Part shown: positions 32,424 to 62,228 of the stretch, piece after piece
How the letters are laid out: the number at the start of each line of letters is the position of its first letter
How positions within the stretch are numbered: position 1 is the stretch's first letter
Assembly (NCBI RefSeq): GCF_030684315.1
Contig: NC_081369.1
Span: 41,692,630-41,756,629 of the forward strand
Reading direction: 5' to 3'
Length of the DNA stretch: 64,000 nucleotides
DNA from: Stegostoma tigrinum
Taxonomy: Eukaryota
Translations under genes and position numbers: made by a program
The notes under the pieces: model-generated
What the model was told of the DNA's origin: nothing
Seen by the model: the letters and a program-made list of their open reading frames with translations, nothing else
Databases searched by the model: none

Positions 32424-32692
32424 CTATGGATTAAAAGATCGGCTGATGTTGCTTCCTTGGTTCTGTAAAGTTACAAGGATGTCATCAATTTTTTCCATGT
32501 TCTCTTCTGTAGTGATGGTTGATGACAGTTGCCTTGTGTCAGTCATCTGCTGGGGGAGAAGTGTAGAAACAGCTTGTCCCTCAGTCTGTGCCTGTCCTGG
32601 CTGGCTCATCACAAGCAGTTGATCAGATAATGTTGTTGGTCCAGTAGGACATGGCTGGGATACATCTGTTATATTCATTAACTGTCCACAAT
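32424..32692 (-). CDS. NFAT5: NFAT5 last coding exon, including the stop codon
   Basis: Acceptor ttccacag|, phase 1. Translates DCGQLMNITDVSQPCPTGPTTLSDQLL...NMEKIDDILVTLQNQGSNISRSFNP*. The TAG is immediately followed by a GTAGGA donor. Confidence 0.95.
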
Positions 32693-34260
32693 CTGTGGAA
32701 ATAAGATTTTGTGTATATTTCTGTGATTATACATGGTTATGTTATATTCCTTATTTGAAGTTCAAGACATTTTTATTCTCCACACCCCTCCCCTGCCATC
32801 TTTTCCTGCCCCTCCTCTTATTAAGAAGCTGTTACATCTCTTTTTCCAGTTCCGATAAAAAGTTTGACTTGAAACATAAACTCTGTTTCCCTCACTCTGG
32901 ATGCTGCCTGAACTGTTGACTGTTTCCAGCATTTTCTATTTTCCATGTTGAAAATAAACAATGGATGCAGGTAGAATATTTCTCTGCACACAAGAAAAGA
33001 ATGCTAATTTGTCAGAATATGAATTGGCGTTTCAGAAACTGTTAACTGTCTATCTTATTTAGCTGAATACATGCAGGTGGGTCAGATAAACTGATTAGTC
33101 AGGGCATTACACTGGACAATATTGCAGGATTGACAGTCTCCATAATTCTTCCCCTACCAAAAAAATGCAATATATGGTCACATTCTTTTTGCTTAAGAAG
33201 AAAAGGGTCCAGTGTAGAAACACAGTTCATGCTACCAGAACATGCAAACATAAACCGAAAATTTCAAATTAGTTTCCTGTGTTATTCTGAACATTGTCTA
33301 CACTACTTAATAAATGTTGTCCATGACCAGAATTATGGACTAGTTCTAGTGTTTCATTACTAGTGTAGAGACAGCCTTAGTTCAGTAGCAACTAAAAGCA
33401 CCAGTCAATCCCTTCGACTGTCCACAATGGACAGAGTCCTGATTATGCTCAATTAGGTCATGCTTACAAAGCACAGAACAACACTTATGATATAAGATGT
33501 GATTCTCCTGTTCATGAGCATTTAATAAATAACCGTGTTGAAAATGACACAAAAACTAATTTAAGATTATCAGTTGCATTTTCCGTGAGATTCATTTACA
33601 CTGCTAGAAACTACATATATTCACACATGGATTCTTTACCTCACTGGGAAAAGGAATATCAACATATCTTACTCATGAGGAAAGGGATGTGGAAATTGCT
33701 GTTTCCACACTCTCCATGGCAATGCCATGGCTAATGAGAATCCACCTCCCTGGTCGGAATTTAAGCCTGCGTTTGCTGACACTGATGCATGCAAGCTATG
33801 TGCTGCCGTGAATCCCACACCTGCAGATTTCAGGGAATGCAGCTGAAGTTGGGTGCGAGATTTGGAAGACCCAGGAAGAGGGAGGGGTAGGGAGATATTG
33901 GGATCCAGGAGAGAACGGTGAGGTTGAGGTGTGACAACACCAACGGCCCAAGAGCTGGAGGAAAAACAGAAGACAGACATCTTTGGCTGCTGGGCTCCTC
34001 TTCCCTTCTCACTCCTTTCCCACCATCCCCATTCCGTGCGCAGCATCCCTCTCTGCATCAAATTGTGGATGTTTCCCGGTGCATGCGCAGTAATACAACT
34101 GCCTGTGATATCACATGTAAAGTGGATGTGATGATGTCCATGCTTAGAACTATGTGTTCCAAATGAGTATGCATGTGCAGTTACCCAGAGTTGGTGATGT
34201 CAAAAATCACTTCTGGAGTTAAATCAGCTATGACTGATAGTTAATATCTACATCACCACA

Positions 34261-34592: not shown

Positions 34593-34620
34593 GACGTTTC
34601 GGGCCTAGACCCTTCATCAG
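34593..34620 (-). ncRNA. Minimal hammerhead ribozyme core (PLE), sense to the NFAT5 pre-mRNA
   Basis: Minus strand CTGATGAAGGGTCTAGGCCCGAAACGTC with intact core nucleotides. Confidence 0.65.
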
Positions 34621-35973: not shown

Positions 35974-36001
35974 CTGATGAAGGGTCTAGGCCCGAAACGT
36001 C
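35974..36001 (+). ncRNA. Minimal hammerhead ribozyme core (PLE)
   Basis: CTGATGAAGGGTCTAGGCCCGAAACGTC, identical to the inverted copy at 34593-34620. Confidence 0.65.
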
Positions 36002-38339: not shown

Positions 38340-40851
38340 CATTTTGAATTCCAAACAAGTACAAGCCAGTAGGTTGCTGAGCAGGTGCAGGTGTACTTTG
38401 AAGCTGGTTCATAGTTCCTTGTGAGCGAAAAAGTGTACTTTGTTGTTGACTTGGTACAGATGTGTTGGTCTGAAGGACAGACATATTATTTTGTGGATTA
38501 AAAATAGTGGACTGTTGCATCTCTTGTTGATTTATATCATTCTGTAATGCAGACATTGAAGTCTGGGAAATGAACAGTGTGACTTGCTGACTTTGGGCAT
38601 CTCCTGAACTCTGGACTAACTGCATTTGAGGTTGGCCATGAAAAACTGATGGTTGTTGTTCATCCGTCTGAGCTGTTCCACTGTTTTGAAGTGTTGAAAC
38701 TGTGGTCTGATTTTGGAACTGAATGGATGATTGTTGTTCTTGATTAACAGCCACCATATTAGGTTGAGTATGAAAGAGAGTTTGGTTTTGCTGCTCCTGG
38801 GGAGCCAAATTTGTACTCATTGGAGGCATGGTACTCTGAGAATTGAAAAGGACATTCTGTTGTTGCTCCCGGGATGTCATGCTGCTATTTAATGGAGAAA
38901 TGGCATTTTGAGAGCTAAAAAGAACATTCTGAGATTGATCTTGAGGTGAAGTGCTGTTGTGCAGAGTAGCTATTGAATGTTGGGTCTGAAACATTGATGT
39001 CTGCTGATTTTGAGAAGAAGTGTTAGCCTGGGGAGAGGGCATTGTGACCTGATGTTGAAAAAGACTCTGTTGTTGGTGTTGCTGCTCTTGAGGAATCATG
39101 GTACTCTGAATCTGAGACATGTGTGTCTGGGTCTGAAAGACATTCACGGATTGCTGCTCAGAATCTCCTGAACTCTGGAGTGCTTGGATTGAGCTTTGGG
39201 GTGAATAGAAGTTTATCGGTTGCTTTTCTTGTGAAATGTTGCTATCTTGAAGTGAAGGCAAAGAGTTTGGAGAAAGAAAGAGTGCACTTTGTTGCTGGTC
39301 TTGGCCAATTGAAGAACTTTGAAGAACTGCCATTGAATTTTGAGGATGGAACAATGTTGACTGTACTTGATCCTGGGAAGCAGCATTGTTCTGATGTTGT
39401 AGCACAGTACTAGGGCAATGATAAAGTCCAGACTGTGATTCTTGTGAATGGCCTGTACCTTGAACTTGATTTAGAGAATTTTGTGGATGAAACAATTCAG
39501 ATGATGGATGTGATTGCTGCAGGAAGTTTCCAGGTTGCATTGAAATCATTTCCCCACCCTGTTGAAAAATCCCAGATGGCTGTGAAGAGCCACCAGTTTT
39601 TAGATGCATCATACCATCTGTATTAGAAAACAAAGTTACTTGAGGCTGGTTATCTCCACTCTGCTGCATCTGTACAATAGACTCAAACATATTGGTTTGT
39701 CTCTGGTTCGACTGCACAGAGGTCTCTTCCACAGTAACCATGGTGTTAGAGCACTGAAAGACACTTGGGGAAGAAGTTGGTTGCTGAGGATTTCCTTTGT
39801 TTTCTTTCCCTGCAACAGTTGTAGCAGGTGAAAACATTGCACTGTGGGATATTTGATGCTGGTTTTCCTCACTGGACTGCAAACTAGACATAGCATGAGT
39901 GGGCTGCTGAAAAATATCACCTTGCTGGAGGGTTCCATTTAAAGAACCCTGGGCACTCATTACTTTAGAGGATTGGTACATGTCTGACTGGAGTTGTCCT
40001 GTTCCAGGGCATATGTTCTGTTGCATTTCCATCAAAATGCCTGTCGAGGATTCTAGTACTTGTTGATTGGACAATGAGTTCTCAGGTCCAGACAGAACAT
40101 TATCTGATCTAGGAAGCGATGTGTTGTCAGAACTTGAAAATAAACCTTGCGTGAGAGAGCTCTGCATAGAATTTACCTGGTGGAATAAATCTGCATTCAT
40201 CTGGTCTTGTACCTGTTCCACAGGTTGTTGCATTGTCTCAGATGGACTAGATCCAGTAAATAAAACAGAAGTTAATTGCTGCTGACTTGCCTCCAGAGCT
40301 TGTTGAACAATACTAACATTGTCACTTCTGCCACTGTTACCATTTGTTTGGAAGTTTCTTTGTTGCATCGAGTGCAAAGCATTCTGCAACTGAGATACAT
40401 TGCCACTTGGTTGAAATAAGTTTGGTGAATGCTCTTGCAGGGCCTGCGTCTGTGTCGTTGATGGTTGCTGTTGCTGTTTCTGTTGTAGCGCAGAGTCGGG
40501 CATTGGGGATAAGGATATCTTTGCTGCATCAGACTGCAAAACTTCTCTTGTTTGTACCTCCCTTGAGTCTAGCAATATGTGAGCATTGTGAAATTGGGTT
40601 GTTTGTTGAAGCAAGCCTTCATTATTCTGGACTTGGCTGGAACATTTAGATGCTGGAAAAGCACATGGCTGAGAAATGTCTTGTTTTTGTACAGTTGTCA
40701 AAGCTTCTGTATTTGAAAACATACTCGATTGAATTTGCTGGCACTGTTCACTATCCCCCCCTTGATGAGCTACAGATACAGAAAATGGCGCATTTGCTTT
40801 GACGTTAGAAGAAATTTCCAAAGGTGGCTGTCCTGCTCCCATATCTTGACT
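38340..40851 (-). CDS. NFAT5: NFAT5 giant exon: Q/S-rich transactivation / prion-like domain
   Basis: 2512-nt open exon inside ORF 38275..40881; acceptor tttgttcag|, donor |gtaag, phase 0-1. Contains NFAT5 hallmarks such as EALTTVQKQDISQP, VQMQQSGDNQPQVTLFS, QQVTLFISQTSMSALQ and LYLFGIQN. Confidence 0.97.
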
Positions 40852-42344: not shown

Positions 42345-42484
42345 TTCAAAAGCTGCAGATGGTGTCTGATCCATTGGAGTCGTTGCCTCTTTCTTAATCA
42401 CAACTGATGGCAGTATGGGTGATAACAAAGTAGTAGGGAGATCCACTTCTTCCAAGGAACAGCCTGCGACTTTCATTCCCGAAG
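42345..42484 (-). CDS. NFAT5: NFAT5 coding exon (linker, IKKE motif)
   Basis: Acceptor cttcttcatag|, donor |gtatga; 140 nt, phase 1-0. Translates ASGMKVAGCSLEEVDLPTTLLSPILPSVVIKKEATTPMDQTPSAAFE. Confidence 0.92.
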
Positions 42485-43584
42485 CTATGAAGAAGTTTTT
42501 TTTAAAAAAAAGTCATACTTAATCCATACCTAAGAAACCAATTTTTGTCAGTTATACTGATAGTATTGATTACATTGCCTTGACTAACATTTAAGGTATA
42601 AACGAGTACATTCAATGCATTTGTTAAGATATTCTACCCACTAAACTTAGTGGTTTTTCTGCGGAACAAAAGCAAACTCTTTCTTACTGTTGCCACCTTA
42701 TTTTCAGATTAATTCTTGCCCAGAATTGCACAGTAATCATAATGTCAATACATAACAATTTTGATCACAAAATTTCAAATTGAACAATAGTTTTCATTTA
42801 TGTGGTGTCTTTTACTTAGAAGAAATGCAGAGTGTAGCTAAAATGACAAACCATGAGCAGGTTGAGAGGCCAGTAACAGGCTGAAGGAACTGAATAAATT
42901 TCTTAAAGTAGGATCAGAATGGTAGAATGGTGTGCCACGTATCGTGAAGCAGAGGCGGAAGAGAGGCACTGCCACACATTATGGAGTAGAGGGAGAAGGG
43001 AAGCACAGGACAGGACAAAATGGAGTATGGTGATCAGATAGGCTGATACTGTGGTGATCTTCATGATGGCCTTGCTTTGCTAACTGCCCCCCTTGGTTTC
43101 TTGAAGCCGCTGCCTCCACAGATTCTTCAGAGCTTCTTAAAAGCCCTTTTTCATACTCTGATGGATTGACTTCTCCAATTGCATCTTTATTTCTTTTGTG
43201 CTCCTGAGCTCTTGAGACATTCCTCTGATGAATTTGTGGGTTTAAACTTCTTCCTCCCCAGACCTTTACTGTTCACTGGCACTACTCCATCATCCTCTCT
43301 TGGAACATGAAATTCACTCTTTAATTCTACTAATACCTGAAATCACTATTTATATTTACTGCACTCCTGGATCAGCTTCTGCAGGCTCAACATAAGCCTT
43401 CAGAGATTGTTTTGACTACAACACCCAGCAGTGGGTACACAGAAACTCTGCTCCTTGAACAGCATGAGGATCACCTGTACTCCCTTCAAAATGTCTTTGA
43501 ACTTGGATAAAGTGTCAAGATGCTCCATCCCATTATTGCTCATCTCCTAAATAAGCATAAATTGTAAGAGAAAGAATTGTTTGT

Positions 43585-44113
43585 CAGGATTTGGAATGTT
43601 GTGTACAGTTCTGGTCTCACTTGGAATATTGCATGCAGTTCTGGTCACCCCATTACAGGAAGGATGTGGAAGCATTGGAAAAGGTGCAGAGGAGATTTAC
43701 CAGGATGTTGCCTGGTCTGGAGCGAAGGTCTTATGAGGAAAGGCTGAGGGACTTGGGTCTGTTCTCATTGAAGAGGAGGAGGCCAAGAGGGGATTTAATA
43801 GAGACATACAAGATGATCAGAGGATTAGATAGGGTGGACAGTGAGTCTTTTTCCTAGGATGATGATGTTGGCTTGTACGAGGGGGCATAGCTGCAAATTG
43901 AGGGGTGATAGATTTAAGTCAGAGGCAGATTCTTTACTCAGAATGCCTGCCAATGTAGTTAACTCAGCCACACTAGGGGTATTTAAACAGTCCTTGGATA
44001 AGCATATGGATGATGAAGGGATAGTGTAGGGGGTGAGCTCAGATTAGTTCACAGGTCGGTGCAACATCAAGGGCTGAAGGGCCTGTTCTGCGCTGTATTG
44101 TCCTATGTTCTAT
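43585..44113 (+). mobile_element. Young CR1 3' fragment
   Basis: ORF LEYCMQFWSPHYRKDVEALEKVQRRFTRMLPGL..RGDLIETYK and a (tatgttc)n tail; a ~30-nt diverged duplication at the 5' end. Confidence 0.92.
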
Positions 44114-44519
44114 GAATATCCCCCTTCCCAAGATGTAAACAAGGGGAGTGCAAATATCAGAATATGACAAAAGTTGTCACACTCAAGAAAACACCACCAG
44201 GAAGAAGCAAATCACGGGAACAGAAAAACAAAACTGCTCGATTGTGCAGACTAGATTGTGTTTGATAAAGGCAGTGAAGCCAAATAAAAATAATAGTTAT
44301 AGGAACTATAAGAACAAGTGATCAAAATAAATGAAGGATCTGAATCAAATACATCTGGGTTCTTGACACCTCCAGCTTCTAAATCAAATAAACAGCTTGG
44401 TCTGAATTTCATACTTGGACTCAGAAAAACTTGCAGCACCTTTAGCGAATCTATTACAAAATAGTAACAGTACTGGCATTCATTCAACAAGATAGAAAAT
44501 GTGCTGTCCACAAAAAGCA

Positions 44520-45190
44520 GGACAATCAAAATCAAATAATTATTGACCCATCAACCTCAATCATCATCACGTGAGGCAAGGTATTACTGACAGTGCTATC
44601 AAGTAGCACTCAGCTCACCAATAAGCTACTCACAGAAGCTCAGTTTCAGACATCATTCAAACACCATTACAAAGATGGAAAAGAAAGCTAAACTCCAGAC
44701 GTATGCAGAGGGTGACTGCCCTTGACATCAAGACAGCATTTGACTGAATATCAAGGAGCTGTAACAAATGTGAAGTCAGTAAGAATCTAGGAAAAATTTA
44801 CCACTACTTGAAATTATGTCTTCCACAAAATTTGTTGGAGGCTAATCATCCCAAGACCAGGACATAGACACAAAGTTCTTCAGGTAACATCCTATGCCAA
44901 TGATTTTCAGGTGTTTCATCAGTGACATTCTTCTATCATAAGGTCAGGGGCAAGCATACTGACGATTATGGCAACTACTCAATATTGAATGTATGTTAAG
45001 ACCTGGACAATATATCACTCTTGACTGCTAAGTGACAAGTAACATTCAATTGCCTAGTAATAACTACCCTCAAGGACTGAATCATCTCCCAATTATATTC
45101 AATAGCATTACCAGCCCTGTCATCAATATCTTGGGGGTTCCTAATAACTTAACTGAATCATCTATCTAGATACTATGGCTACAAGAAGAA
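44520..45190 (+). mobile_element. Decayed LINE RT, same group as 27520-28460
   Basis: Shared motifs such as gtgactgcccttgacatcaagacagcatttgac. Confidence 0.6.
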
Positions 45191-45497
45191 AACAATGGCC
45201 TGCAAAAGATGGCTTTGGATTGGGGGAAGGCAAATTTTATGACTATAAAGCTGGATCTCGCCATAGTAGACTGGAAACAACTCCGTGCAGATCAATCCGC
45301 AGGGGGACAATGAGGGTACATTTAAAAAGGAGCTGTGGTGACTATAGGTCTAACATGTACTCTTCAGAGGGAAATGTAGGAGCAATAATTTCAGAGGACC
45401 CTGGATGTTTAGGACAAAAACTCGACTGGATAAAGAGGAGGAGTAGGACTTTTAGCGAGTCCAAAGGGTGCATTTCAGCTGCAGCCCTAGGGAAATA

Positions 45498-48347
45498 GAC
45501 AATAGACAATAGACAATGACAGGTGCAGGAGTAGGCCATTCAGCCCTTCGAGCCAGCACCACTACTCATTATGATCATGGCTGATCATCCACAATCAGTA
45601 TCCTGTTCCTGACTTATCCCCATAACCCTTGATTCCGATATCTTTCAGAGCTCTATCCAGAGACTTAGCCTCCACTGCCTTCTGGGGCAGAGCATTCCAT
45701 ATATCCACCACTCTCTGGGTGAAGAAGTTTTTCCTCAAATCTGTTCTAAATGGCCTACCCCTTATTTTTGAACTGTGTCCTCTGGTTCTGGACTCACCTA
45801 TCAGTGGAAACATGCTTCCTGTCTCCAGAGTGTCCAATCCCTGAATAATCTGAAACATCTCAATCAGATCCCCTATCATCCTTCTAAACCCAAGTGTAGA
45901 CAAGCCCAGTCACTCCAATCTTTCAACATGTGACAGTCCCGCCATTCTAGGAATTGACCTCTTGAACCTATGCTGCACTCCCTCAATAGCAAGAATGTCC
46001 TTCCTCAAATTTGGAGACCAAAACTACACACAATACTCCAGGTGCAGTCTCACCAGGGCCCTGTACAGCTGCAGAAGGATCTCTTTGCTCCTATACTCAA
46101 TTCCTCTTGTTATGAAGGCCAGCATGCCATTAGCTTTCTTCACTGCCTGCTGTACCTGCGTGCTTGCTTTCATTGACTGATGTGTACAAGAACACAGAGA
46201 TCTTGTACTTCCTCTTTACCTAACTTGACTCCATTTAGATAGTAATCTGCCTTCCTTTTCTTGCCAAAGTAGATAACCACATTTATCCACATTAAACTGC
46301 ATCTGCCATGCATCCATCCGCTCACCTAGCCTGTCCGAGTCACCCTGTATTCTCATAACATGTTCCCCACATTTCACACTGCCACCCAGCTTTGTGTCAT
46401 CAGCAAATTTGCTAATATTACTTTTAATGCCTTCATCTATATCATTAATGTATATTGTAAATAGCTGCGATCCCAGCACCAAACCTTGTGGTACCCCACT
46501 GGTCACTGCCTGGCATTCTGAAAGGGACGCGTTTAACACAACTCCTTGCCTCCTGTCAGCCAGCCACTTTTCAATCCAACTCAGTATTTTGCCCCCAATA
46601 CCATGTGCCTCATTTTGTTCACCAATCTCCTATGCGGGACTTTATCAATGGCTTTCTGAAAGTCCAGGTATACTACATCTACTGGTTCTCCCTTGTCCAT
46701 CTTCGTAGTTACATCCTCAAAAAATTCCAGAAGATCAGTCAAGCACGATGTCCCCTTCATAAATCCATGCTGACTCTGACCTATCCTGTTACTGCTATCC
46801 AAATGAGTCGTAATTTCATCTTTTATAATTGACTCCAGCATTTTCCCACCACTGACGTCAGGCTAACTGGTCTATAATTTCCTGTTTTCTCTCTCCCTCC
46901 TTTCTTGAAAAGTGGGACAACATTAGCCATCCTCCAATCTGCAGGAACTGATCCTGAATCTATAGAACACTGGAAAATGATTATCAATGTGTCCACGATT
47001 TCTAGAGCCACCTCCCTAAGTACCCTGGGATGCAGACCCTCAGGTCCCGGGGACTTACCAGCCTTCAGACCTAACAGTCTATCCAACATCATTTCCTGCC
47101 TAATACAAATTCCCTTCGGTTCATCCATTACCCTAGGTCCTTCAGCCACTATCACATCTGGGAGATTGCTTGTGTCTTCCCTAGTGAAGACAGATCCAAA
47201 GTACCTATTCAACTCTTCTGCCATTTCCTTGTTTCCCCCATAATAAGTTCGCCCATTTCTGTCTTCAAGGACCCAATTCTAGTCTTAACCATTTTTTTTT
47301 CTTTTCACATACCTAAAAAGCTTTTACTATCCTCCTTTATACTTTTGGCCAGTTTTCCTTCGTACCTCATTTTTTCTCTGTGTATTGCCTTTTTAGTTAT
47401 CTTCTGTTGCCCTTTAAAAGCTTCCCAGTTCCTCCGGCTTCCCGCTCATCTTTGCTATGTTACACTTCTCTTATCTTTATACAGTCCTATCTTTATACAG
47501 TCCTTAACTTCTCTCGTCAGCCATGGCCGCCCCTGCCTCCCTTAGGATCTTTCTTCCTCTTTGGAATGAACTGATCCTGCACCTTCTGCATTATATCCAG
47601 AAATACCTGCCATTGTTGTTCCACTGCCATCCCTGCTAGGGTATTGAACCACTGAACTTTGGCCAGCCCCTCCTTCATATCTCCACAGTTCCCTTTGTTC
47701 AACTGCAATACTGACACTTCCGATTCTCCCTTCTCCCTCTCAAACTGCAGATTAAAATTTGTCATAGTATGGTCACTACCTCCTTTACTTTGATGTCCCT
47801 GATCAAATCCGGTTCATTACACAACACCAGATCCAGAATTGCCTCCTCCCTAGTAGGCTCCAGTACAAGCTGTTCTAAGAATCCATCTCGGAGGCACTCC
47901 ACAAACTCCCTTTCTTGGGGTCCAGTACCATCCTGATTCTCCCAGTCTACCCACATGTTGAAATCTCCCATAACGACTGTAGTAATACCTTTGCGACAGG
48001 CCAATTTCAACTCGTGATTCAACTTACACCCTACATCCTGACTACTGTTTGGGGGTCTGTAGATAACTCCCATTAGGGTCTTTTACGCTTAGAATTTCTC
48101 AGCTCTATCCACACTGACTCCACATCTCCTGATTCTACGTACCCCCTCGCAAGGGGCTGAATATCGTTCCTCACCAACAGGGCTACCCCACCCCCTCTGC
48201 CCATCAGTCTGTCCTTTCGAAAGCACGTATATCCTTGAATATTCATTTCCCAGGCCCTGTCCACTTGAAGCCACATCTCAGTTATCCCCACGACATCGAA
48301 CTTGCCAATTTCCAACTGAGCCTCAAGCTCATCCACCTCATTTCTTA
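45498..48347 (-). mobile_element. CR1 LINE with APE endonuclease and RT, lightly decayed
   Basis: Consecutive minus-strand ORFs: DVVGITEMWL, GVIYRPPNS..MGDFN, NVVPLFKKG..NYRPVSLTS, YLDFQKAIDKVPH, SKFADDTKLGG. (tctattg)n tail; TSD ggaaata at 45491-45497 and 48348-48354. Confidence 0.95.
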
Positions 48348-49840
48348 GGAAATACAGGAAGTGCAGGAAGGAACTTAAGAAAGCAATTAGAAGAGCAAAA
48401 AGGGTGCATGAAAAAGTACCTGCAAACAGGATTAGGGAGAATCAAAAGCTATTTTAATTGCAAGAAGTTAATAAGAAGAGTAGGGGCCAAGGAGGCACCC
48501 TGTGCATGAAGTGCAGTATATTGGAAGGGTGTTGAATGAACACTTCTCTTCGGACTTCACTCTGGTAAAGGATAATCTAAGTATGGAATTCAGGAAAGGG
48601 ACTGTCAGGAACTTGCACAGTTCAAACCGTAGGAAATGAGGAGGTATCGGAGCCTCTGCTGGGCTTAAAAAAAAGTCAAATTCCCTGGCCCGACTGAATT
48701 GCAGCCCAGGCTACTGTGAGAGGCGAAGCAGGAAATTGCAGGATCTCTGACAAATTTTTCAATCCTCTCTGGCCATGGGGAAAGTGTGCCTGAAGACTGG
48801 AGGATGGCTAATGTGGTTACACATTTTAAGAGGAGTGGTAGAGATGAACTAGGAAATTACAGGCCGGTGAATCTCACATCACAGATTAATACTCACTTGC
48901 AAAGGGTTAATTAGGGACAGTCAGCATGGCTTCATCGGAGGGAGGTCATGCCTAATAAAATGTGTTGGAAGTTTCTGAAAATGTGATCAGGTGTGGGGAT
49001 GACAGAAATTCAGTTGATGTAGTTTATATGGATTTTAGCAAAGCTTTTGACAAGGTTCCAGATGAGAGACTGAGAAGGTTAAAGTACATGGAACTGAAGG
49101 AAACTTGGTGAGATGGATCATAAATTGGCGTAGTAATAAGATAAAAATAGTAGTAGTAGAAAGCTGTTTGACTGACTGGAGTCCAGCATCCAGCAATATA
49201 CCACAAGGATCAGAACACAAAGAATATAGATGAAACGAAGAGGGAACGTTCAGCAAATTTGCAGATGGCACCAAGATTGGTAGCATGGTTAATAGCAAAG
49301 AAGATTGTAGGTTGTAGGTTACAGGAAGATATAGATGGTTGGTCAGATGGGTAGATGGTATTTAACCCTGACAAGTGTGAGGTGGTACACTTTGGAAGAA
49401 AAACAAAACAAGATGAGGGAGTATTTAATGAGTGACTGGACAATGGGTAGTTTAGAGAAACAGAGCTATCTTGGAGTAATTATTCACAGATCCCTGAAGT
49501 TGGCAAAGCGCATGAACTGGATAGTTAAGGCAGCATATGGGACACCTGCTCTCATCAGTCATGGCATCGAGTATAACAGCAAGGAGTTAATGTTGGAGTT
49601 TTACACAACTTTGTTCAGGCCACAGTTGGAGTACTGTATGCCGTTCTGGTCAGCTCACAACAGGAAAGATGTGATAACACTAGAGGGGATACAGAGGAGG
49701 TGCACCAGGATGTTGCCTGGGATGAAGACATTGAGGTATAAGGAGAGAACAAGTAGGCTTGGACTGTTTTCTTTACAGCAGCAAAGACTGAGGAGGGACA
49801 TGATTAAGGTGTAGAAAATTATGGGGCGTATGGATAAGGT

Positions 49841-50480
49841 TATTAAGAAAGCATATGGTGTTTTGGCTTTCATTAACAGGGGGATCAAGTTTAAGAGCCG
49901 CGAGGTTATGCTGCAGCACTACAAAACCCTGGTGAGACCACACTTGGAATACTGTGTCCAGGTCTGTTCGCCCTATTGTAGGAAAGGGGTGGAGGCTTTG
50001 GAGAGGGTGCAAAGGAGGTTTACCAGGATGCTGCCTGGACTGGAGGGCTTGTCTTACGAGGAGAGGTTGACGGAGCTCGGACTTTTCTCTCTGGAGAGAA
50101 GGAGGAAGAGAGGTGACCTGATCGAGGTGTACAAGGTAATGAGAGGCATGGATAGAGTCGATAGCCAGATACTCTTCCCCAGGGCAGGACTGACTGCCAC
50201 AAGGGGTCATAGTTTTAAGGTGTTAGGAGGAAGGTGTAGAGGAGTCGTCAGAGGGAGGTTCTTCACCCAGAGAGTTGTGAGCGCATGGAATAGTTTGCCA
50301 GTGGTAGTCGTGGAGCGGAGTCATTAGTGACATTTTAAGCGACTGCTGGACATGCACATGGACAACAATGAATTGAGGGGAATGTAGGTTAGGTTATTTT
50401 GTTTTGTTGTTGGATTAGGATTATTCCACGGCACAACATCATGGGCCAAGGGGCCTGTACTGTACTTTTCTATGTTCTAT
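49841..50480 (+). mobile_element. Young CR1 3' fragment nested in an older CR1
   Basis: Open 168-aa RT C-terminus; TSD gtatgga(t/c)aaggt at 49828-49840 and 50481-50493. Confidence 0.92.
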
Positions 50481-52530
50481 GTATGGACAAGGTGAATGAG
50501 GGCAGCTGTTCCCTTTAGTTGGGGAGTCGGTCACAAGAGAGCATAGTTTTAGGGTAAGGGGTAGAAGATTTAGAGGTGATTTGGTTAAGGAAAAACCTTT
50601 TCACTCATGAGGTGGTGGGAATTTGGATGCACTGCCTGGGAAGGTAATGAATACTGAAACCTCACAACATTTAAAATATTTGGATGAGTATGTCAAGGAT
50701 ACTGGGACAAGTGCAGGAAATTGGTATCAATGGGATATCAATTGGTATATGAATGGGAATTCAGAGGAATTCTAAGGTAAGTAACTTCCCTCAATTTCTC
50801 AAAGCTGATATATCATTTACAAGGCTCAAGGCATGAATGTATTAGAAAACTGTCTGCTTGCTTGGTCAAGTACAGTTCCAATAATATCCAAGAAGCAAGA
50901 CACCATACAAGATAATGCCTTTTTGATTCGTACCTCATGCATAACTAGGAACTTTCACTCCCTCCAGTACCATTACAAACAGTCAGCACTGTATACAGCT
51001 GCGAGCTGCAGTGCATGAACTAATCAATGCTCTTTCAAAAAGTAACATCAAAATCTGCAATCTCTGACACCTAGAAGAAGGGTGGCAGACTTATGGGAAC
51101 ATAAGCCAATCCAAGTTTCCAACCAAGGCACACTCCATCCTGACTTGGAACTACATCAACCTTCCTTCACTAATGCTGGAAACCTTTAACAGTACTGATG
51201 TGCACGCACAAGAGAAGTTGCAGCAATTCAACAAGATGGCTCACCACCATCCTCTCAGGGAAAATTAGAGATGGTGGGCCTGCATTCCAAAGTTAAATAA
51301 AGTAAAATACACAGCCTCATTATAATATTTAAAATGCTAACCTCTCTGGACAAGGAGATATGCTAGAGCCCAAAAACTGGAGTAAAGGGCCCCAGGCGGG
51401 GAAGACACTGTGTTTCGGCAAAGGGACTTGAGCCAAGCTAAGGTGTACAAAACTACAAGGATATAGACAGGAAGAAATTATTCCCCTTAGTAAAGAGTCA
51501 ATAACCAGGGGTCACAGTTTTAAGGTAAGGGCAGGTAGGCTGGAGAGAATTTGATGGGGTAACTTACTGGCTGAAAAGGGTGCTAAGGGCAGGAACCCCT
51601 ACAATATTTAAGAGCTATTTACATGAACACTTAAAATGCCATAACATATAAGGCTATGGGATAACTGCTGGAAAATGGAATCAGAGTAGACACGTGCTTG
51701 ATGAGTGGTCTGGGCATAATGGACCTCTTTCCATGCTGTAAAAACTCCATAACTCCATTATATTGTTTGGAATTACCAACCCTCCTAGGATTTCAGACAT
51801 GTTATTCTCTTTCTTTGCAGAGATGTTCTATAGCAAATATTTAAGTAATTTTTCATAAAGATACAGCTAGATAAGTAACTAAAACTTAAGATATAGCTCA
51901 TCTGAATAACCACTTGTGTGGAACACTAAGCAGATCAGAACTATTTATTTAAAACTTCAAAATAGTTCATCATGGTAGTGGACTTTAATTTAATGTCATA
52001 TGCAGTGACAGAATGATTTATATCAAAACTAAAACTTTAACATTTCATATGCGTGGCAAGCTATGAAGAATATATTATCAAGTTGGCACTTGGGTACAAT
52101 CAGAGAACTTGATCAGTGCGCTATATATGAAATGATCATACATGCAGTGGAAATGTTTAACAGCACTCAATCTTAGATTAAAAACTTGGCCAGCGTTTTA
52201 AATATTAAACAGATTCTGGCCAACGGATATACATTTTTAAAAAAGTCTCTGCACACTTCACGTTCACAGAGGTGTACTGCTAAAGTAGAAAACCCATAGA
52301 TTTACCACTGAAAATGCAGGGTAACAGAGCTCCTCAAAATAATCACTACTGTATAACAGTAACATGTGTACATTTTTACTTCTCAAAAGATTACTTCCTC
52401 ATAGCAGAATTCCTCACTCTCGTGTTGCCGAATTTGATAACTCAGTTAAGATCAATAATTTGTCATGCCTGCAAAACCACAGCCTCAATAGTACATCTTT
52501 TCTTAAATGTGTTATGAAGTACTATTTTAC

Positions 52531-52602
52531 CTTTCATTGTTTCTTCAAAAGAACATGGAGGGACAGGAATTTCTTTCTTCACATTTACGTCTGAGGAACT
52601 TG
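52531..52602 (-). CDS. NFAT5: NFAT5 small coding exon (post-IPT linker, VKKE motif)
   Basis: Acceptor tgtttcag|, donor |gtaaaa; 72 nt, phase 1-1. Translates ASSSDVNVKKEIPVPPCSFEETMK (human counterpart as recalled: [22 protein letters not shown]). Confidence 0.94.
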
Positions 52603-53149
52603 CTGAAACACAAATAGAATACATACTGAATTTTTTCAACACTCAATATTTTGTCCAGTATTCCTTTTGCTAAACATTATAACTATTCACCTTTATACAT
52701 TGCACATTTATTTCTCTATGAAGACAGCACAAACAAGAATCAAATTACTATATAATACTGAAATCATTTAACCAGATATTTGTATTCAGATGAAGCATTT
52801 AAAATATTAAAATAATATTTTCCCAGGTCGTAGATTGTACTTAATACCAAAGAAGTCCATGCTCTTCTACTTTGTGGCTTGATCACAGTCAAACAACCTC
52901 ACAGGGCACGTATAAATACAATATTCCCTTTAACAAGCAAATAATAAGATCAGTTTCTGAATTTCCTGATTTAGGATTTATTTACCAATAGTTTTGGTTT
53001 AGCTCAGGAGGCTGGCCAGCTGGTTTGCAAAGCAGAGTCATGCAAGCAAGCGAGCAACTCTACAACTTCATCCACCACCCAAGCTACAAATCTTCTCAAA
53101 AGCTACTTCAATTTTCACTAAAAATCGTTGTGGTGGGTCCATCAGCAGG

Positions 53150-55934: not shown

Positions 55935-56067
55935 CTGGATCAGGGGTGAAAGTGAAAGGTTGCATTTCATGTGACCTTCCAGCATTGGTTACGATATAAA
56001 TTCCAACTGAAACAGGTGATGTAATGTGTGGATTGTGATATGGAGGAACCTTAACAATTAGATGATT
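55935..56067 (-). CDS. NFAT5: NFAT5 coding exon (IPT domain, part 3)
   Basis: Acceptor ttttcaaag|, donor |gttag; 133 nt, phase 0-1. Translates [44 protein letters not shown]. Confidence 0.97.
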
Positions 56068-56549
56068 CTTTGAAAAGAAACAAAACAAAAATCACATACG
56101 GTGAATAGGTAACATTATTAATCTCAAATTCTTTTAAGAATGCATTAAAAATTGCCCATTTAGAGACAAAACAATATAGATAAATGCAACAAATATTGCT
56201 TAAAGGGCAAGAAATACAGTGGAACATTCAGCCTACAAACTTCAAACATGGAAGGGTGTGAAAAACAATGGTCCTAAATATTGGTTGCACAAATAAATAC
56301 AGCTCCATGGAGTGATAATCTGCTGGAGGGATGATCCAGTCAGGCCATGTGGGTTAAACTGATGAACAAAGGGGCAATCATAATGCTGGGAATGTACTGT
56401 AGACCTCCAGAGTGGGAGACAATGAGACAGAAAAGAGATAGACAGTGGAAGTGTTGGAGAGAAAATATACAAATTTCTCAGATGTGCAAATAATAGGGAA
56501 TTTAATCTGTCCTATTACCAACAGAGTCAGAAATGATGTTACAAGTAAG

Positions 56550-57290
56550 ACCATCAGACATAGGAGTGGAAGTAAGGGCATTCGGCCCATTGAGTCCACT
56601 CCACCATTTAATCATGGCTGATTGGCATTTCAACTCCACTTCCCTGCACTCTCCCCGTAGTCCTTAATTCCTTGTGAGATCAAGAATTTATCAATCTCCA
56701 TCTTGAAGACATTTAACGTCCCAGCCTCCACTGCACTCTGTGGCAACGAATTCCACAGGCCCACCACTCTCTGGCTGAAGAAACATCTCCTCATTTCCGT
56801 TTTAAATTAACCCCCTCTAATTCTAAGGCTGTGCCCATGGGTCCTGGTCTTCCCGCTAAGCCATACATTATCTTGTAAGTTTCTATTATATCTCCCCTCA
56901 ACCTTCTAAACTCTAATGAATACAATCCCAGGATCCTCAGCCATTCATCGTACGTTAAACCTACCATTCCAGGGATCATCCGTGTGAATCTCCGCTGGAC
57001 ACGCTCCAGTGCCAGTATGTCCTTCCTGAGGTGTGGGGCCCAAAATTGGGCACAGTATTCTAAATGGGGCCTAACTAGAGCCTTATAAAGTCTCAGAAGC
57101 ACATCACTGCTTTTATATTCCAAACCTCTTGAGATAAACGACAACATTACATTTACCTTCTTAATCACAGACTCTACCTGCAAGTTAACGTTTAGAGAAT
57201 CCTGGACCAACACTCCCAGATCCCTTTGTACTTCTGCTTTACGAATTTTCCCACCGTTTAGAAAATAGTCCCTGCCTGTATTCTTTAAAG
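56550..57290 (-). mobile_element. Young CR1 3' fragment
   Basis: 177-aa ORF QRDLGVLV..LYKALVRPHLEYCAQFWAP..RLRGDIIETYKI. Confidence 0.93.
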
Positions 57291-57923
57291 TGCAATTAGG
57301 TGAATGAGTCCATAACCAACTCAAAAAAGAAGAAAAAAAATAGCTTCAGGAAATGAAGTTAAGCAGGAGCAAAGGATGTCAGTAGGATAATCAGTTAGAT
57401 GTCATGTTTCCCATTCCATAACCACAATGGGCCAGGAATGAAATTTCTTAGTTAGAAAAGGCTAATTTTACTAAGCTGAGAAGTGATTTAGCTAAAGTGC
57501 ACTGGAAAGAGCTACTTGAATATGAAAGTGCAACAGCAATGACAGGCTTTTCAAAAGAAATAGCGATGGTTCAGAACAGTATGTTTTCATAAAGACAAAT
57601 GGCTGGGACTCCCAAATTTAAATCTGCCTGAGTATCAAAGGCAAACGGGTAGAATGAGGTAAAATAGGAAATCTTATGTCAAATACTTAGAACTCAAGAT
57701 TGCAGAAACCTGAAGGGGAAGAAAATGCAGTGTGAAATTAAAAAGGAAATTAGAAAAGCAAAGAGATGTTATGAAAAATTACTGGCACGTAAACGAAGGA
57801 TAATCCAAAAACATTTTTTCAGTACATAAGGATGAGGAGGAGATGGCAATGAGACATTAAAAGGGTGTCTCACTGCTGACAGTGCACTATTATTTATTAA
57901 AGAAAGGGTGGGATAGGTCAAAA

Positions 57924-58025
57924 CTGAGGAAGGGTCACTGGACCCGAAACGTTAACTCTGATTTTTCTTCTCTGATGCTGCTAGATGTGCTAAGCTTTTC
58001 CAGCAACTTATGTTTTTGTTCAGGA
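57924..58025 (+). mobile_element. Short 3' end of a second Penelope family with a hammerhead core
   Basis: CTGAGGA-A-GGGTC(actg)GACCC-GAAAC-GTT: perfect 5-bp stem II, followed by a gatgctg..tttccagca tail. Confidence 0.7.
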
Positions 58026-59353
58026 ATTACAGCTCAGTCACTTTAACACTGCTGGACAAAATACTTGGCAAAAACATGTAAAAAGAAGCAAATAATCAAG
58101 GTCAGTCATAGATTAGTGTAGAGAAGGTCATGTGTCACTAACGTGTAACAGAGATTCAACAATAGCAAAAGTTATTTTGTTTAATGTTGAGATGAGAGTT
58201 GCTGTCTAGGCCAGCATTTGTTGCTCATTCCTAAATACCCTCATGAGGATGGTTGTCTGCATAGATTTCAAAAAGGCTGCTGACACGTCCAACGTATTAA
58301 ACTAGTTAGAAAAATTTTGAATTTCGAGGGCAAGTGGCAAGCTTGTTCCAAAACTGGTTCTGTAACATAAGGAAAAGTCTGTGGGCTAGAAGTGTTTTTG
58401 TGAAAAGGCAGTAAATCCAGAAAATCTTGTCACATTTAAAAAGTGCTTGAATATTCATTTGAAGTACCATAATCAAAGGCTATCAAGCAAAGGTAGAAAA
58501 GTGGGATTTGGTGGATGCATCTTTTGCAAACATCACAAACACAAGCCCTTTCTATGCTTTTAATTCTTATTCTTTGAAATAGGAGTGAAATTCAAAATGT
58601 AAAGAAAGCTAACCAAACACTGAACCTATAGATGTTTAGTACCAGTGAAAGATCAAAACTTGTTCTGTAAAAAAATTCTTATTAGTGAAGAATTAAACAG
58701 TTTTACGACTTGCTACGGTGGAATATGAATCTAAGACCTCTTGGTTGCCAATCTAGCACCCCGACTATGAGGCTGCCATACTCTTACAGTCGGCTTAGAT
58801 GTAGGATTTTGGACAACATACAGCATACAGTGATGATACGGAGATGGCTGTGAGCTATGAACACCAGAACAGTGGTATCCATTAACATGAAAGTCAGAAA
58901 TGCTGTGTGTCGGAGTACTGGCACAGAGATTCTAGTCTGTGGAAAAGAGGAGATGAGATTTCACTGATATAAACCCAGTACATTAATTTGAGCATCTGGC
59001 CTGACAAAAGCAGAATTAACTTATGAGAGGAAGTGGGGAAAAAATAAAGGTATAGTTGCTGAAAGTGGAGTAGGAGCAGGAGGTAAAAGGGGTGGTGTGG
59101 GAACTATAAAGGACTGAAACAAGACAGGCTTCAGCAATAGATGGTGACAAAAACTGGGAAGAAGATGGAAATCATAAACAATTGCATGATGAAGACAGGA
59201 GTAAGAACAGCATAAAGGACTTGGGTAGAAAGAAATGGGGGGGGGGGGTAAAGTCAAATTTAATAATGTACAAGGATGACGGTATAGGTGAAAGCAGGAT
59301 TTGTGGAGGATGAAGACAAAGCAGAAAAAAAATGGCTGAAGGAGAATTGTATC

Positions 59354-59560
59354 AGATCATGGGAACTGCGGATGCTGGAGAATCCGAGATAACGAAGTGT
59401 GGAGCTGGATGAACACCGCAGGCCAAGCAGCATCTTAAGAGCACAAAAGCTGATGTTTCGGGCCTAGGCTTTTCTGATAAGGGTCTAGGCCCGAAACATC
59501 AGCTTTTATGCTCCTAAGATGCTGCTTGGCCTGGTCATCCAGCTCCACACTTTGTTATCT
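59354..59560. mobile_element. Miniature Penelope-derived fold-back element
   Basis: Inverted pLTR ends around a degenerate hammerhead; TSD atggctgaagga(g/c)aat at 59332-59347 and 59561-59576. Confidence 0.85.
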
Positions 59561-59779
59561 ATGGCTGAAGGACAATCCTTCCCCAGTGTTTTTTTTAAAG
59601 AAAAGGCTTTTTCCAGAAATAAGCTGTAAAAGCCTACTGGTACAAATTTGTACCTACCAGACAGATATTCTGAATTCAACAGTCACTCCTTTAAGCAATC
59701 TGCGCACATCTTATTTTTATGGAAATTGACTCTCAGTGCTCTGTATATTGCACACAGGCAGTAAGCAAATAGTTGATAG

Positions 59780-60060
59780 CTGTCAGCCATAGCTGAATCA
59801 GTAGCGCATCCACCTAGTCAGAAATTTGAGGGCTTATGTCCCATTCCAGTTCTTGAGCACAAAAAGAAAGGCTAACATTTCAATGCAGTACTAAGGAAGT
59901 GCTCTACTGTCAATAGTTCTGTTCTTCAGAGATGATGGTATGCTGAGGCCTTTCAGGTGGTCTAGAATACTCCGTGACATTAAGTTGGTGAGCAAGGGGG
60001 ATGTCTCCAGGTCCTGGAGAATAATCAGTCAGTCAACATACCACTGTCTCAGAGCTTGTG
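59780..60060 (+). mobile_element. Decayed Deu-domain SINE
   Basis: cttgagcacaaaaa..ggctaaca..gcagtactaaggaagtgct matches the element at 37795-38210. Confidence 0.55.
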
Positions 60061-60509
60061 GTCATTTAGACTTCCTACCATGATGAGACAAGATGAATAA
60101 ACAATTTCATCTGCTTCATTTAAATTCCAGTGAACATACAAAGTTATAGTTATGATCATATTTACTTGTTTGCAACAACGTAATTTGCACCACATAATCC
60201 AAACAAAATGAATATCAAGTATTACACAACTTTCATGAATAATCTTTCTTGATGTTGATTTTATTTACTATGCCCCTACCGCGATCTTTTTGCACTCAAT
60301 TGCCCATGCTGTCCTTTTAGCTGTGAAATATTCAGATTCAACAGCCAAACACTAGTGTCAGCTTTAAATAAAGTTCAATCTTCTCTCTCTATCCCTGGCT
60401 TCACCACCCCAGCAGTGGAATTCACTGACTTGATCTGAAAATAAGACCCGCTGAATTCCAATGAATAAAGCAAATGCAGCAGAAAAGTGTGTGAACAATT
60501 AGTGGGATG

Positions 60510-60800
60510 TCAGAGAACAGAGAATAGTACAGCACAGTACAGGCCCTTCAGCCCACAATGTTGTGCCACCCTATTATCTTACTAAGATAAAACTACCCTG
60601 CATACCCTACCTTTTACTATCATCCATGTGCCTATCCAAGAGTCGCTTGCATGTCCTTTAATGGATCGAACTCCACTACCACCGCCAGCAGCACATTCCA
60701 CGCACCCACTACTCTCTATGTAACCTACCTTTGACACCTCCCCTATACCTTTCTCCAATCACCTTAAAATTGTGGCCCCTCGGAATAATGTTTTTTTTTC
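60510..60800 (-). mobile_element. CR1 3' end fragment
   Basis: acagtacagg cccttcagcccacaatgttgtgcc, a CR1 3'UTR in reverse. Confidence 0.8.
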
Positions 60801-60868
60801 CCAGGGCGGAAATGACTATCTTTTATTGGATTAATCACTATGAGTTAACACAACCCTTTTGAAGTATT

Positions 60869-60964
60869 CTGAGCAAGGGTCGCCAGACTTGAAACGTTAA
60901 CTCTAATGTTTTCTTCAGATGCTGCCAGACCTGCTGAGCTTTTCCAGAAGCTTAGATTTTTGTT
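60869..60964 (+). mobile_element. Short Penelope 3' end (second family), degenerate hammerhead
   Basis: ctgagcaagggtcgccagacttgaaacgttaactct..; TSD cctt(t/c)tgaagtatt at 60855-60868 and 60965-60978. Confidence 0.7.
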
Positions 60965-61595
60965 CCTTCTGAAGTATTATTTGTAACTGTGAGCTCTGCT
61001 GCCATAAGTACAACACTTGTTAGATAAGATTTGTTCAATAATAATGTTTGAACATACAGCAGAAAAGTTTCCCCCATATCAGAATATGAAAACCTAGAAT
61101 GCAACACTTAGGTAGTTAGGTTGCACCTAACATAGTTATTTATTTTTTAAAAAAGTATACCTCTTTAACTTGAAGAAAATGCACATTCCAGTCATGATTA
61201 GTATTTGTTATTATGTTGTGTTAAATTATTTTAAAAAGTTTTTCTGAAGTCCAAATTTGCTATTATTTTTCAAAGTAATGGGGACTTGAAGTCATAACAG
61301 GGGATATAATAGTCTTATTTGCAATCAGCTGAATGCCTCTTACAGAACTAACAGACCTATTCAATTTAAACTTGAAGGTGTTGTTTGCAGGAATAAATCA
61401 AAAGATAAAAACATATCAACATTTATAGATAGGTGAATGGTATGACAGGCATAGAAAAACAACATAACAAAACAAGGCAATGTAAATTGGCAACAAGTGA
61501 AAAGATTACAGGAACTAAGTACAATACCACAGAATACAGAATGAATATAAACATTCTTTCCCTTTCATGCAAGTGCTGTGAGCATCTAAACTCAC

Positions 61596-61651
61596 CTGAT
61601 GGAAAAGTTCCATGTCAATTTCAGCTTCTGCTTTCCAAGGATTATTCTCCT
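61596..61651 (-). CDS. NFAT5: NFAT5 small coding exon (IPT domain, part 2)
   Basis: Acceptor cttaactag|, donor |gtgag; 56 nt, phase 1-0. Translates EENNPWKAEAEIDMELFHQ in frame with its neighbours. Not in the ORF track. Confidence 0.96.
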
Positions 61652-62093
61652 CTAGTTAAGATAAGCAATTTTGTTAAAAAGTTAATAAATATTATTCCAA
61701 TGTCAGTATTACATGGTATTACTGTATTTCAAATTTTATTGTGACAGTACTTTTCGTGTGAAGCAGCTTGAGTGCATATTGGTGAATGTCATAGTAAGTG
61801 AGATACAGCTGCACATAGCCTTGAATGGAGACTTGGACACTAAAACATACAGGAGCCAAAGAATTCTCCTCACATTAGCCAAAACCTATCTCCCAAAAAA
61901 GTTCCAAACAGATTACCGGGGCCATACTTGGTTATTAATTTTCAGACAGTTACTGCTCCTCAGTGATAATACCACCCAAGGTGCACGTACTTGTTAATTT
62001 GAGCTATTCATAACATAATGAGTTCAGTAGTTGTTATATAAATGAATACAAACATAAATTTGATAGATTTGTTTCATTACAGCACGAGCTTAC

Positions 62094-62228
62094 CCGAATG
62101 ACTCTCTTGAAAAATAACCTTCGTGCCTTTTAAAAAGTTTTTTCCAATCAGAAATAATTCTTCTCCTCCTTTCACCGTACAACTGTGCAAGCTTTTTTTC
62201 AATATCTCGGGTGCTCCAGCTGGTTGAG
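62094..62228 (-). CDS. NFAT5: NFAT5 coding exon (IPT/RHD-C domain, part 1)
   Basis: Acceptor ..tttaaag|, donor |gtaag; 135 nt, phase 1-1. Translates (x)[44 protein letters not shown], closely matching vertebrate NFAT5 as I recall it ([41 protein letters not shown]). Upstream exons are not in the window. Confidence 0.97.

What the first reader, a model, noticed from the sequence alone, without database searches (positions are those of the whole stretch)
38340..39495. Cryptic ~24-aa tandem repeat array builds the NFAT5 Q-rich/prion-like domain
Seen in sequence: the domain usually called low-complexity parses into 16 consecutive units of 23,24,24,24,23,26,23,24,24,24,19,25,23,24,24,23 aa. Examples: LFHPQNSMAVLQSSSIGQDQQQSA / LFLSPNSLPSLQDSNISQEKQPIN / MFQTQHSIATLHNSTSPQDQSQNV / LFSSQNAISPLNSSMTSREQQQNV / LFISQTSMSALQNDINQQEMQQST / IFNPQNNMSVLQTNTSVPSQQQST. 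The consensus has hydrophobic+F/Y at positions 1-2, M/I/L/V at 8, L/I/V/M at 11 and Q(D/E)QQ near 18-21. About 6-7 looser units continue upstream to ~39980. Established: the mammalian NFAT5 C-terminal prion-like region drives ionic-stress-induced condensates and transactivation. Inference: the exon grew by ancient duplication of a ~72-nt unit, and the evenly spaced aromatic stickers are the functional grammar of the sensor. The slowly evolving shark copy, lacking long polyQ expansions, shows the period unusually clearly. I do not know of a named repeat family for it.
Basis: partly seen in the sequence, partly recalled or inferred. Interest (0 to 1): 0.72.

Follow-up and report, generated by a model that had tools for sequence, protein, structure and literature searches.

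The report
Ancient hidden repeat in NFAT5 tail
The floppy glutamine-rich tail of this shark's salt-stress transcription factor NFAT5 consists of 16 worn copies of a roughly 24-amino-acid unit that likely arose by ancient duplication; other jawed vertebrates keep each unit's aromatic residue but not the exact spacing, so the units likely supply a fixed number of sticky spots rather than a precise ruler.

Summary
The repeat is real. Window 38365-39495 (minus strand), in the large C-terminal exon of shark NFAT5, holds 16 units with the stated lengths. 13 of 18 aromatic spacings are 23-24 aa (shuffle maximum 6), and the period persists with aromatics masked (z 8.1). Serine codon families sort by unit column (p 1.5e-4), favouring ancient duplication. 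The anchor aromatic is kept in 602 of 608 cells across 38 bony vertebrates, but 23-24 spacing survives in only 2-7 of 16 units, against 11-13 in cartilaginous fish. Lamprey has irregular heads; hagfish and invertebrates lack the unit, yet the fly tail is reported to be salt-responsive. So sticker number, not exact period, is likely what is selected, and the repeat is probably not the sensor itself. Even aromatic spacing in human NFAT5 and the need for those aromatics in transactivation are already published (PMC11321997). Not found in my searches: the whole-unit repeat, its age, and a younger 11-aa expansion in salamanders. The scan's index held no NFAT5 note, only analogous KMT2D arrays.

The parts
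38340..40851 (-). Large C-terminal coding exon of NFAT5 (837 codons plus one base), encoding most of the disordered C-terminal domain
   Evidence: Splice sites and frame; 96% identical to P0001 residues 564-1404
38365..39495 (-). Array of 16 degenerate units of 19-26 aa (mostly 23-24): hydrophobic + F/Y at 1-2, often H/Q at 3, Q at 5, M/I/L/V at 8, mostly L at 11, Q at 12, Q-D/E-Q-Q-Q at 18-22
39427..39495 (-). Unit 1 (23 aa)
39355..39426 (-). Unit 2 (24 aa)
39283..39354 (-). Unit 3 (24 aa), the best match to the other units
39211..39282 (-). Unit 4 (24 aa)
39142..39210 (-). Unit 5 (23 aa), double aromatic head
39064..39141 (-). Unit 6 (26 aa)
38995..39063 (-). Unit 7 (23 aa); about where salamanders carry a younger 11-aa array
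38923..38994 (-). Unit 8 (24 aa); polyQ insertions fall here in coelacanth and mammals (up to 81 aa)
38851..38922 (-). Unit 9 (24 aa; median 18 in the bony vertebrates aligned)
38779..38850 (-). Unit 10 (24 aa; median 18 in the bony vertebrates aligned)
38722..38778 (-). Unit 11 (19 aa, short in all species aligned)
38647..38721 (-). Unit 12 (25 aa)
38578..38646 (-). Unit 13 (23 aa)
38506..38577 (-). Unit 14 (24 aa)
38434..38505 (-). Unit 15 (24 aa)
38365..38433 (-). Unit 16 (23 aa)
38341..38364 (-). Conserved hydrophobic end motif of the exon with two aromatics (a possible truncated 17th head)
   Evidence: highest pLDDT of the model (70-75)
39496..39981 (-). Upstream zone of 8 hydrophobic- or N-preceded F/Y heads at irregular spacing (11-26 aa); weakly unit-like, not periodic
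40378..40419 (-). Isolated head that matches the unit profile well, far upstream of the array
   Evidence: score 9.7, 0 of 20,000 null draws as high
55936..62226 (-). Three NFAT5 exons of the Rel-homology dimerisation domain (62226-62095, 61652-61596, 56076-55936)
42345..52603 (-). Two short NFAT5 exons between the Rel-homology domain and the large exon (52603-52532, 42485-42345)
32427..32702 (-). Last coding exon of NFAT5

Best explanation
The C-terminal prion-like region of this shark NFAT5 is a degenerate tandem array of 16 units of about 24 amino acids that likely arose by repeated duplication of a ~72-nt segment before jawed vertebrates split, and it likely works as a disordered sticker-and-spacer scaffold in which the number of hydrophobic-aromatic heads, not the exact period, is kept by selection. 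Shown here: the array, its column structure, one-to-one retention of the 16 aromatics in jawed vertebrates, drift of unit lengths, and absence of the unit in the hagfish and invertebrate proteins examined. Shown in print for human NFAT5: the region is necessary and sufficient for salt-induced condensation and transactivation and recruits BRD4; glutamine, histidine and aromatic residues matter, serine does not. Inferred: each head (hydrophobic-F-H/Q-x-Q, then M at 8 and L at 11) is one weak association site, and nearly uncharged Q/S/N spacers keep the chain soluble. Rising ionic strength would strengthen head-head and glutamine contacts until the chain condenses and engages coactivators. The repeat would be a vertebrate way to raise valence and transactivation strength on top of an older salt-responsive behaviour.
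For: Periodicity beyond aromatics. Serine codon family (TCN vs AGY) is shared in 83 of 106 same-column Ser pairs vs 58.9 +/- 5.1 shuffled, p 1.5e-4, and p <= 0.002 in five stratified shuffles. The anchor aromatic is kept in 602 of 608 cells (16 units x 38 bony vertebrates) and F is the most conserved residue type, 0.90. The region holds 18-20 aromatics in 48 of 48 aligned proteins while unit lengths vary. Coelacanth and lungfish keep 21-25 aa at units 9-10 where most amniotes have 17-21, so about 24 is likely ancestral. Salamanders show that duplication of an F-bearing Q-rich unit happens in this exon: 36, 16 and 13 units of 11 aa. AlphaFold2 gives no fold (pLDDT 45, pTM 0.19). The array is 4.4% D/E and 0.8% K/R. 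Human PLD is aa 999-1454 (PMC10602047), which covers the array (pangolin unit 1 at 1087, end motif at 1457 of 1540). NFAT5 without aromatics reads 0.19-0.41 vs wild type 4.2-9.2 in a GAL4 reporter (PMC11321997 source data). Q>A kills, S>A is neutral, H>F enhances and H>K weakens (PMC11838016 section 11). 6 of 11 PLD histidines in four mammals directly follow the anchor F.
Against: No DNA-level repeat is detectable by TRF; identical codons among same-residue pairs are not above shuffle (p 0.09) and third-position identity is only weakly so (p 0.02). The leucine codon-family test is not significant (p 0.10). The serine signal could partly come from each site toggling with its allowed neighbours (Asn/Gly vs Pro/Ala/Thr). 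Neighbouring units are barely more alike than distant ones, so no duplication order can be read. The 602/608 count rests on a MAFFT alignment that favours pairing F with F, and the three salamanders were left out of it; their aromatic count is far higher (22-45 between units 5 and 11), so sticker number is not fixed everywhere. Strong conservation of spacing among cartilaginous fish (11-13 of 16) and of units 13-14 in nearly all species could reflect selection on length. No experiment on the shark protein and no spacing-scramble of NFAT5 was found.
Confidence: 0.68

Rival explanations
1. The exact 23-24-residue period is the functional grammar of the ionic-strength sensor.
For: Very tight spacing in 10 of 10 cartilaginous fish rows (CV 0.06-0.09); units 13 and 14 stay 23 and 24 in nearly all rows. 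Aromatic dispersion raises activity in other TF tails, and clustering EGR1 aromatics lowers it (PMC11321997 passages and peer-review file).
Against: Frogs and squamates keep only 2-5 of 16 units at 23-24. Teleost heads are irregularly spaced. 107 of 118 tails from the fly-query search have no unit head, 11 have one, and none has evenly spaced aromatics at p<0.01. Xenopus, zebrafish and Drosophila tails all keep ionic-stress condensation (PMC10602047).
Confidence: 0.12
2. The period arose without segment duplication, by selection for evenly dispersed hydrophobic motifs in a Q/S-rich tail (convergent patterning).
For: No DNA repeat. Lamprey has hydrophobic-F-Q/H heads at irregular spacing of 9-55 aa, and the upstream shark zone has similar loose heads, so heads can exist without a period.
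Against: Many non-aromatic columns across the whole unit are alike, including spacer positions 14 and 18-22. Serine codon families are column-pure (position 7: 6 of 6 TCN; 13: 6 of 6 AGY; 9: 5 of 5 TCN), which protein-level selection does not predict.
Confidence: 0.12
3. Each unit is a small structured module (a short amphipathic helix binding a coactivator, or a strand stacking in a labile cross-beta polymer) rather than a generic sticker.
For: Hydrophobic residues at 1, 2, 8 and 11 fit one helix face (autocorrelation at lag 7, z 3.4). 1,6-hexanediol but not 2,5-hexanediol dissolves NFAT5 condensates, which the authors link to labile cross-beta contacts (PMC11838016).
Against: No confident structure (310 of 385 residues under pLDDT 50), no PDB sequence match, no Atlas look-alike. 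Positions 8 and 11 are only moderately conserved in bony vertebrates, with 16-21% gaps.
Confidence: 0.15

Closest known systems
Human NFAT5 IDR as a periodic-aromatic TF IDR (Naderi et al. 2024, PMC11321997; passages, Extended Data legends part 1 of 3, one source-data part, peer-review passages)
   Same: The orthologous region. 30 aromatics are more evenly dispersed than 1000 of 1000 shuffles (omega 0.124), and removing them abolishes GAL4 reporter activity.
   Different: In the passages read it treats aromatic dispersion only: no ~24-aa unit, duplication origin or cross-species comparison is described, its motif search over all periodic blocks found no motif, and ionic stress or spacing mutants of NFAT5 are not mentioned.
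Human NFAT5 prion-like domain as ionic-strength sensor (Khandwala et al., PMC11838016 and preprint PMC10602047; abstract, sections 10-11 whole, passages)
   Same: The same domain (aa 999-1454), Q/S-rich and charge-poor; it condenses and activates transcription with salt.
   Different: No occurrence of 'periodic' or 'aromatic' in the published main text, and 'repeat' only in unrelated senses. Q, S and H were mutated, not F or spacing. Supplementary figures could not be seen.
Sticker-and-spacer prion-like domains of FUS, hnRNPA1, TDP-43 (as described in PMC11321997); oligopeptide-repeat and FG-repeat regions (recalled, no call)
   Same: Disordered, polar, evenly spaced aromatic stickers that favour reversible condensation.
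   Different: Stickers here are mostly F in a Q/S/N background at about 24-aa spacing inside a longer unit with extra hydrophobic positions; no sequence relationship was found.

Membership tests
NFAT5/TonEBP orthologue | Rel-homology DNA-binding and dimerisation domains followed by a long Q-rich C-terminal domain | tested here: met
   The exon is 97% identical to whale shark NFAT5 P0001 and all named hits among the 82 are NFAT5 or hypothetical. P0001 carries PF00554 and PF16179, and its dimerisation-domain exons map in the window.
Degenerate protein tandem repeat | Consecutive units alike beyond composition, at several positions | tested here: met
   a query of units 3-10 also finds the downstream units of the same exon (E 3e-7, 36%).
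Degenerate protein tandem repeat | Common descent of units at DNA level | tested here: inconclusive
   Serine codon families favour it; TRF, identical-codon and leucine tests do not detect it.
Named repeat family (Pfam) or solved repeat fold | Match to a curated profile or PDB chain | tested here: not met
   0 Pfam families for the exon and array; 0 PDB sequences at E<=1 with the two-unit profile.
Folded solenoid repeat protein | Confident repeating three-dimensional fold | tested here: not met
   pLDDT 45, pTM 0.19 with a 48-row alignment; a low score does not exclude conditional structure.
Coding minisatellite (recent) | Near-identical DNA copies | tested here: not met
   No array found by TRF at score 30; DNA identity at lag 72 is 0.398 vs 0.380 in synonymous shuffles.
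Sticker-and-spacer prion-like domain | Polar low-complexity, charge-poor sequence with evenly dispersed aromatics | tested here: met
   23% Q, 16% S, 5% charged, 5% aromatic; spacing CV 0.33 vs 0.90 shuffled.
Sticker-and-spacer prion-like domain | Aromatic-dependent phase separation | not testable with these tools
   Published for the human domain in part: condensation and aromatic-dependent reporter activity; not for the shark protein.

The most novel reading that the evidence does not exclude
The unit is a dedicated ionic-strength-sensing module invented in early vertebrates. Its F-H/Q head is the salt-tuned contact, unit number sets the osmotic threshold of NFAT5, and lineages retune that threshold by changing the array (intact in cartilaginous fish, diluted by polyQ in mammals, enlarged by 13-36 new 11-aa units in salamanders), giving a natural dose series for how an animal cell measures salt.
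Probability: 0.15. Interest if true: 0.72.

Novelty: new member of a known kind. Interest (0 to 1): 0.42.

Why it matters
How the NFAT5 tail converts ionic strength into condensation is stated as open by the authors who found it (PMC10602047). Reading the tail as 16 alignable units turns a featureless low-complexity region into defined parts, so unit-deletion series, head-only mutants and spacer scrambles can be designed, and natural variants (shark, frog, axolotl) serve as ready tests of number versus spacing. It also offers an origin for the most striking periodic TF tail in a published survey. The weight is moderate because the periodic aromatics and their role in activation are already known.

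Tried and rejected
Recent coding minisatellite: rejected. Doubled 12-aa unit: rejected, lag 12 is negative (z -4). Higher-order block duplication: no clear signal in the 16x16 unit matrix. Named family or fold: none. AlphaFold2 gave no usable model, so no fold search was run. No complex prediction was run. Same repeat elsewhere in this genome: a protein query of units 3-10 matched only this exon, with 150 of 450 candidates scored, so absence is not shown; a profile search of this genome was not available. No library-wide search with the unit profile was run, so the unit's absence from other proteins is untested. The second homologue search returned only tetrapods and coelacanth in its 120 listed rows. 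D. melanogaster NFAT was not among the 120 listed hits, and the D. obscura isoform had a 19-residue tail and was dropped, so the fly argument joins a published result on D. melanogaster with sequences of other insects. Literature searches listed no paper describing an NFAT5 repeat unit; PMC10167247 (passages) has no occurrence of 'repeat' or 'glutamine'; the original TonEBP cloning paper was not held, and most subscription papers are not searchable.

Full report
Gene. The finding lies on the minus strand in an 868-codon open frame that contains one exon, 40851-38340. Its last 438 residues are 97% identical to whale shark NFAT5 (P0001), 73-89% to eight other sharks and rays, and 36-55% to bony vertebrate NFAT5. 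P0001 has the two Rel-homology domains, and seven of its exons map in the window in order. The window is therefore an NFAT5 gene of a shark close to the whale shark.

Observation. 13 of 18 aromatic spacings are 23-24 aa; 100,000 composition-preserving shuffles give a mean of 0.58 and never more than 6. The repeat is more than spaced phenylalanines. With aromatics masked and held in place, autocorrelation still peaks at 24 (z 8.1), 48 (4.9) and 71 (4.0), and summed similarity over the 23 non-F columns is 26.1 against -4.4 +/- 1.0. Strong columns are 1 (hydrophobic), 5 (Q in 14 of 16), 8 (M/I/L/V in 16 of 16), 11, 12 (Q), 14 and 18-22 (Q, D/E, Q, Q, Q). A leave-one-out profile that ignores F recognises 16 of 16 heads. 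Units are 17-53% identical. The upstream 'looser units' are only weakly unit-like and not periodic. The longest Q run in the exon is 4.

Origin. No DNA repeat is visible to TRF, and synonymous positions carry little signal, as expected for an old event. Serine has two codon families that cannot interconvert by one base change (established genetic code). Same-column serine pairs share a family in 83 of 106 cases against 58.9 by shuffle (p 1.5e-4), and this survives stratifying by neighbouring base or residue (p <= 0.002). Leucine families do not reach significance (p 0.10). I read this as favouring descent from one ~72-nt segment (about 0.8), with the caveat that sites toggling between serine and allowed neighbours could produce part of it.

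Orthologues. I aligned the array with 47 hand-picked proteins (9 cartilaginous fish, 38 bony vertebrates; most near-duplicate birds and the three salamanders left out). The anchor aromatic is kept in 602 of 608 bony-vertebrate cells, and F is the best-conserved residue type; the plain listing shows the same one-to-one order. The region holds 18-20 aromatics in 48 of 48 rows, but units of 23-24 aa number 11-13 of 16 in the 10 cartilaginous rows and 2-7 of 16 in the 38 bony rows. Coelacanth and lungfish keep 21-25 aa at units 9-10 where most amniotes have 17-21, so the near-24 state is likely ancestral and later eroded by deletions and polyQ insertions.

Deeper relatives. Of 153 proteins given to (148 representatives plus 5 controls), 81 had a tail of 300 aa or more after the Rel domain. 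In the ten jawed-vertebrate rows (three named teleosts among them; two rows unnamed and assigned by 88-89% Rel-domain identity), 64-76% of aromatics follow L/M/I/V against about 20% background. Lamprey has 60% and five profile-matching heads, but irregular spacing. Two hagfish proteins have none. The 68 rows under 60% Rel-domain identity (named ones: tunicate, molluscs, horseshoe crab, crustacean, nemertean, insects; many unnamed, some probably NFATc paralogues) have 0-3 heads. Among the 120 listed hits to a fly NFAT5, 118 had a scorable tail: 107 with no head, 11 with one, none evenly spaced at p<0.01. The heads thus appear with vertebrates and the regular array is seen in jawed vertebrates; whether lamprey lost the period or never had it is open.

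Salamanders. Axolotl (P0071), Pleurodeles (P0073) and an unnamed relative (P0070) carry 36, 16 and 13 units of 11 aa, each with one F, inserted near unit 7. This shows that duplication of F-bearing Q-rich units is a live process in this exon, and that sticker number can rise sharply.

Structure. AlphaFold2 with the 48-row alignment gives pLDDT 45 and pTM 0.19. Pfam, PDB sequences and the Atlas give nothing. The region is best treated as disordered.

Literature. Naderi et al. 2024 (PMC11321997) use human NFAT5 as their example of periodic aromatics (30 residues, omega 0.124, more even than 1000 of 1000 shuffles). Their source data show reporter activity falling from 4.2-9.2 to 0.19-0.41 when the aromatics are replaced; a spacing mutant was made for EGR1, not NFAT5. 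Khandwala et al. (PMC11838016, PMC10602047) show that the PLD (aa 999-1454) is necessary and sufficient for salt-induced condensation and activation, that Q>A kills and S>A does not, that seven H>F or H>K changes raise or lower activity, and that bird, frog, zebrafish and Drosophila tails all respond, with differing sensitivity. In four mammals, 6 of 11 PLD histidines directly follow the anchor F, so some of the tested histidines are probably unit position 3; I could not see their coordinates, which may be in supplementary figures not held as text. Six searches listed no description of the unit.

Mechanism and verdict. Most likely, an ancient duplication array supplies about 16 weak hydrophobic-aromatic heads on nearly uncharged spacers. 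Rising salt would strengthen their contacts until the tail condenses and recruits coactivators. Selection appears to hold the heads and a roughly even spread, not a 24-residue ruler, and since insect tails lack the unit the array is probably an amplifier rather than the sensor. This is a new member of a known kind, interest 0.42. The bolder reading, that unit number sets the osmotic threshold, is not excluded (0.15).

Noticed in passing
P0071 residues about 1107-1515; P0073; P0070 (orthologous to window 38995-39063): Salamander NFAT5 carries a young array of 11-aa F-bearing Q-rich units (36 in axolotl, 16 in Pleurodeles, 13 in an unnamed relative), raising aromatics between units 5 and 11 to 45, 25 and 22.
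   Followed up: partly
P0015 unit 8 (orthologous to window 38923-38994): Coelacanth has an 81-aa unit 8 from a long polyQ insertion; some mammals have 29-42 aa at the same unit, a recurrent polyQ site.
   Followed up: partly
P0159 (Styela clava) residues about 1020-1240; P0160: Tunicate-type NFAT5 tails have many short-spaced (7-16 aa) phenylalanines preceded by Q, T, N or S, a different aromatic pattern from the vertebrate unit.
   Followed up: no
P0221, P0212 (unnamed representatives): Long, aromatic-dense NFAT-family tails with evenly dispersed aromatics (0 of 1000 shuffles as even) but no vertebrate unit.
   Followed up: no
P0174 (Mytilus trossulus) residues about 829-900: A short 10-aa tandem repeat inside the mussel NFAT5 tail.
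   Followed up: no
window 45600-48450 and 56790-57350, minus strand: Broken reading frames resembling CR1/L2-type LINE endonuclease and reverse transcriptase in NFAT5 introns (family label recalled, not tested).
   Followed up: no
window 34500-36000 and 3640-4940: Several copies of a repeated element; the frame at 35307-34579 resembles a Penelope-type GIY-YIG endonuclease remnant (label recalled, not tested).
   Followed up: no
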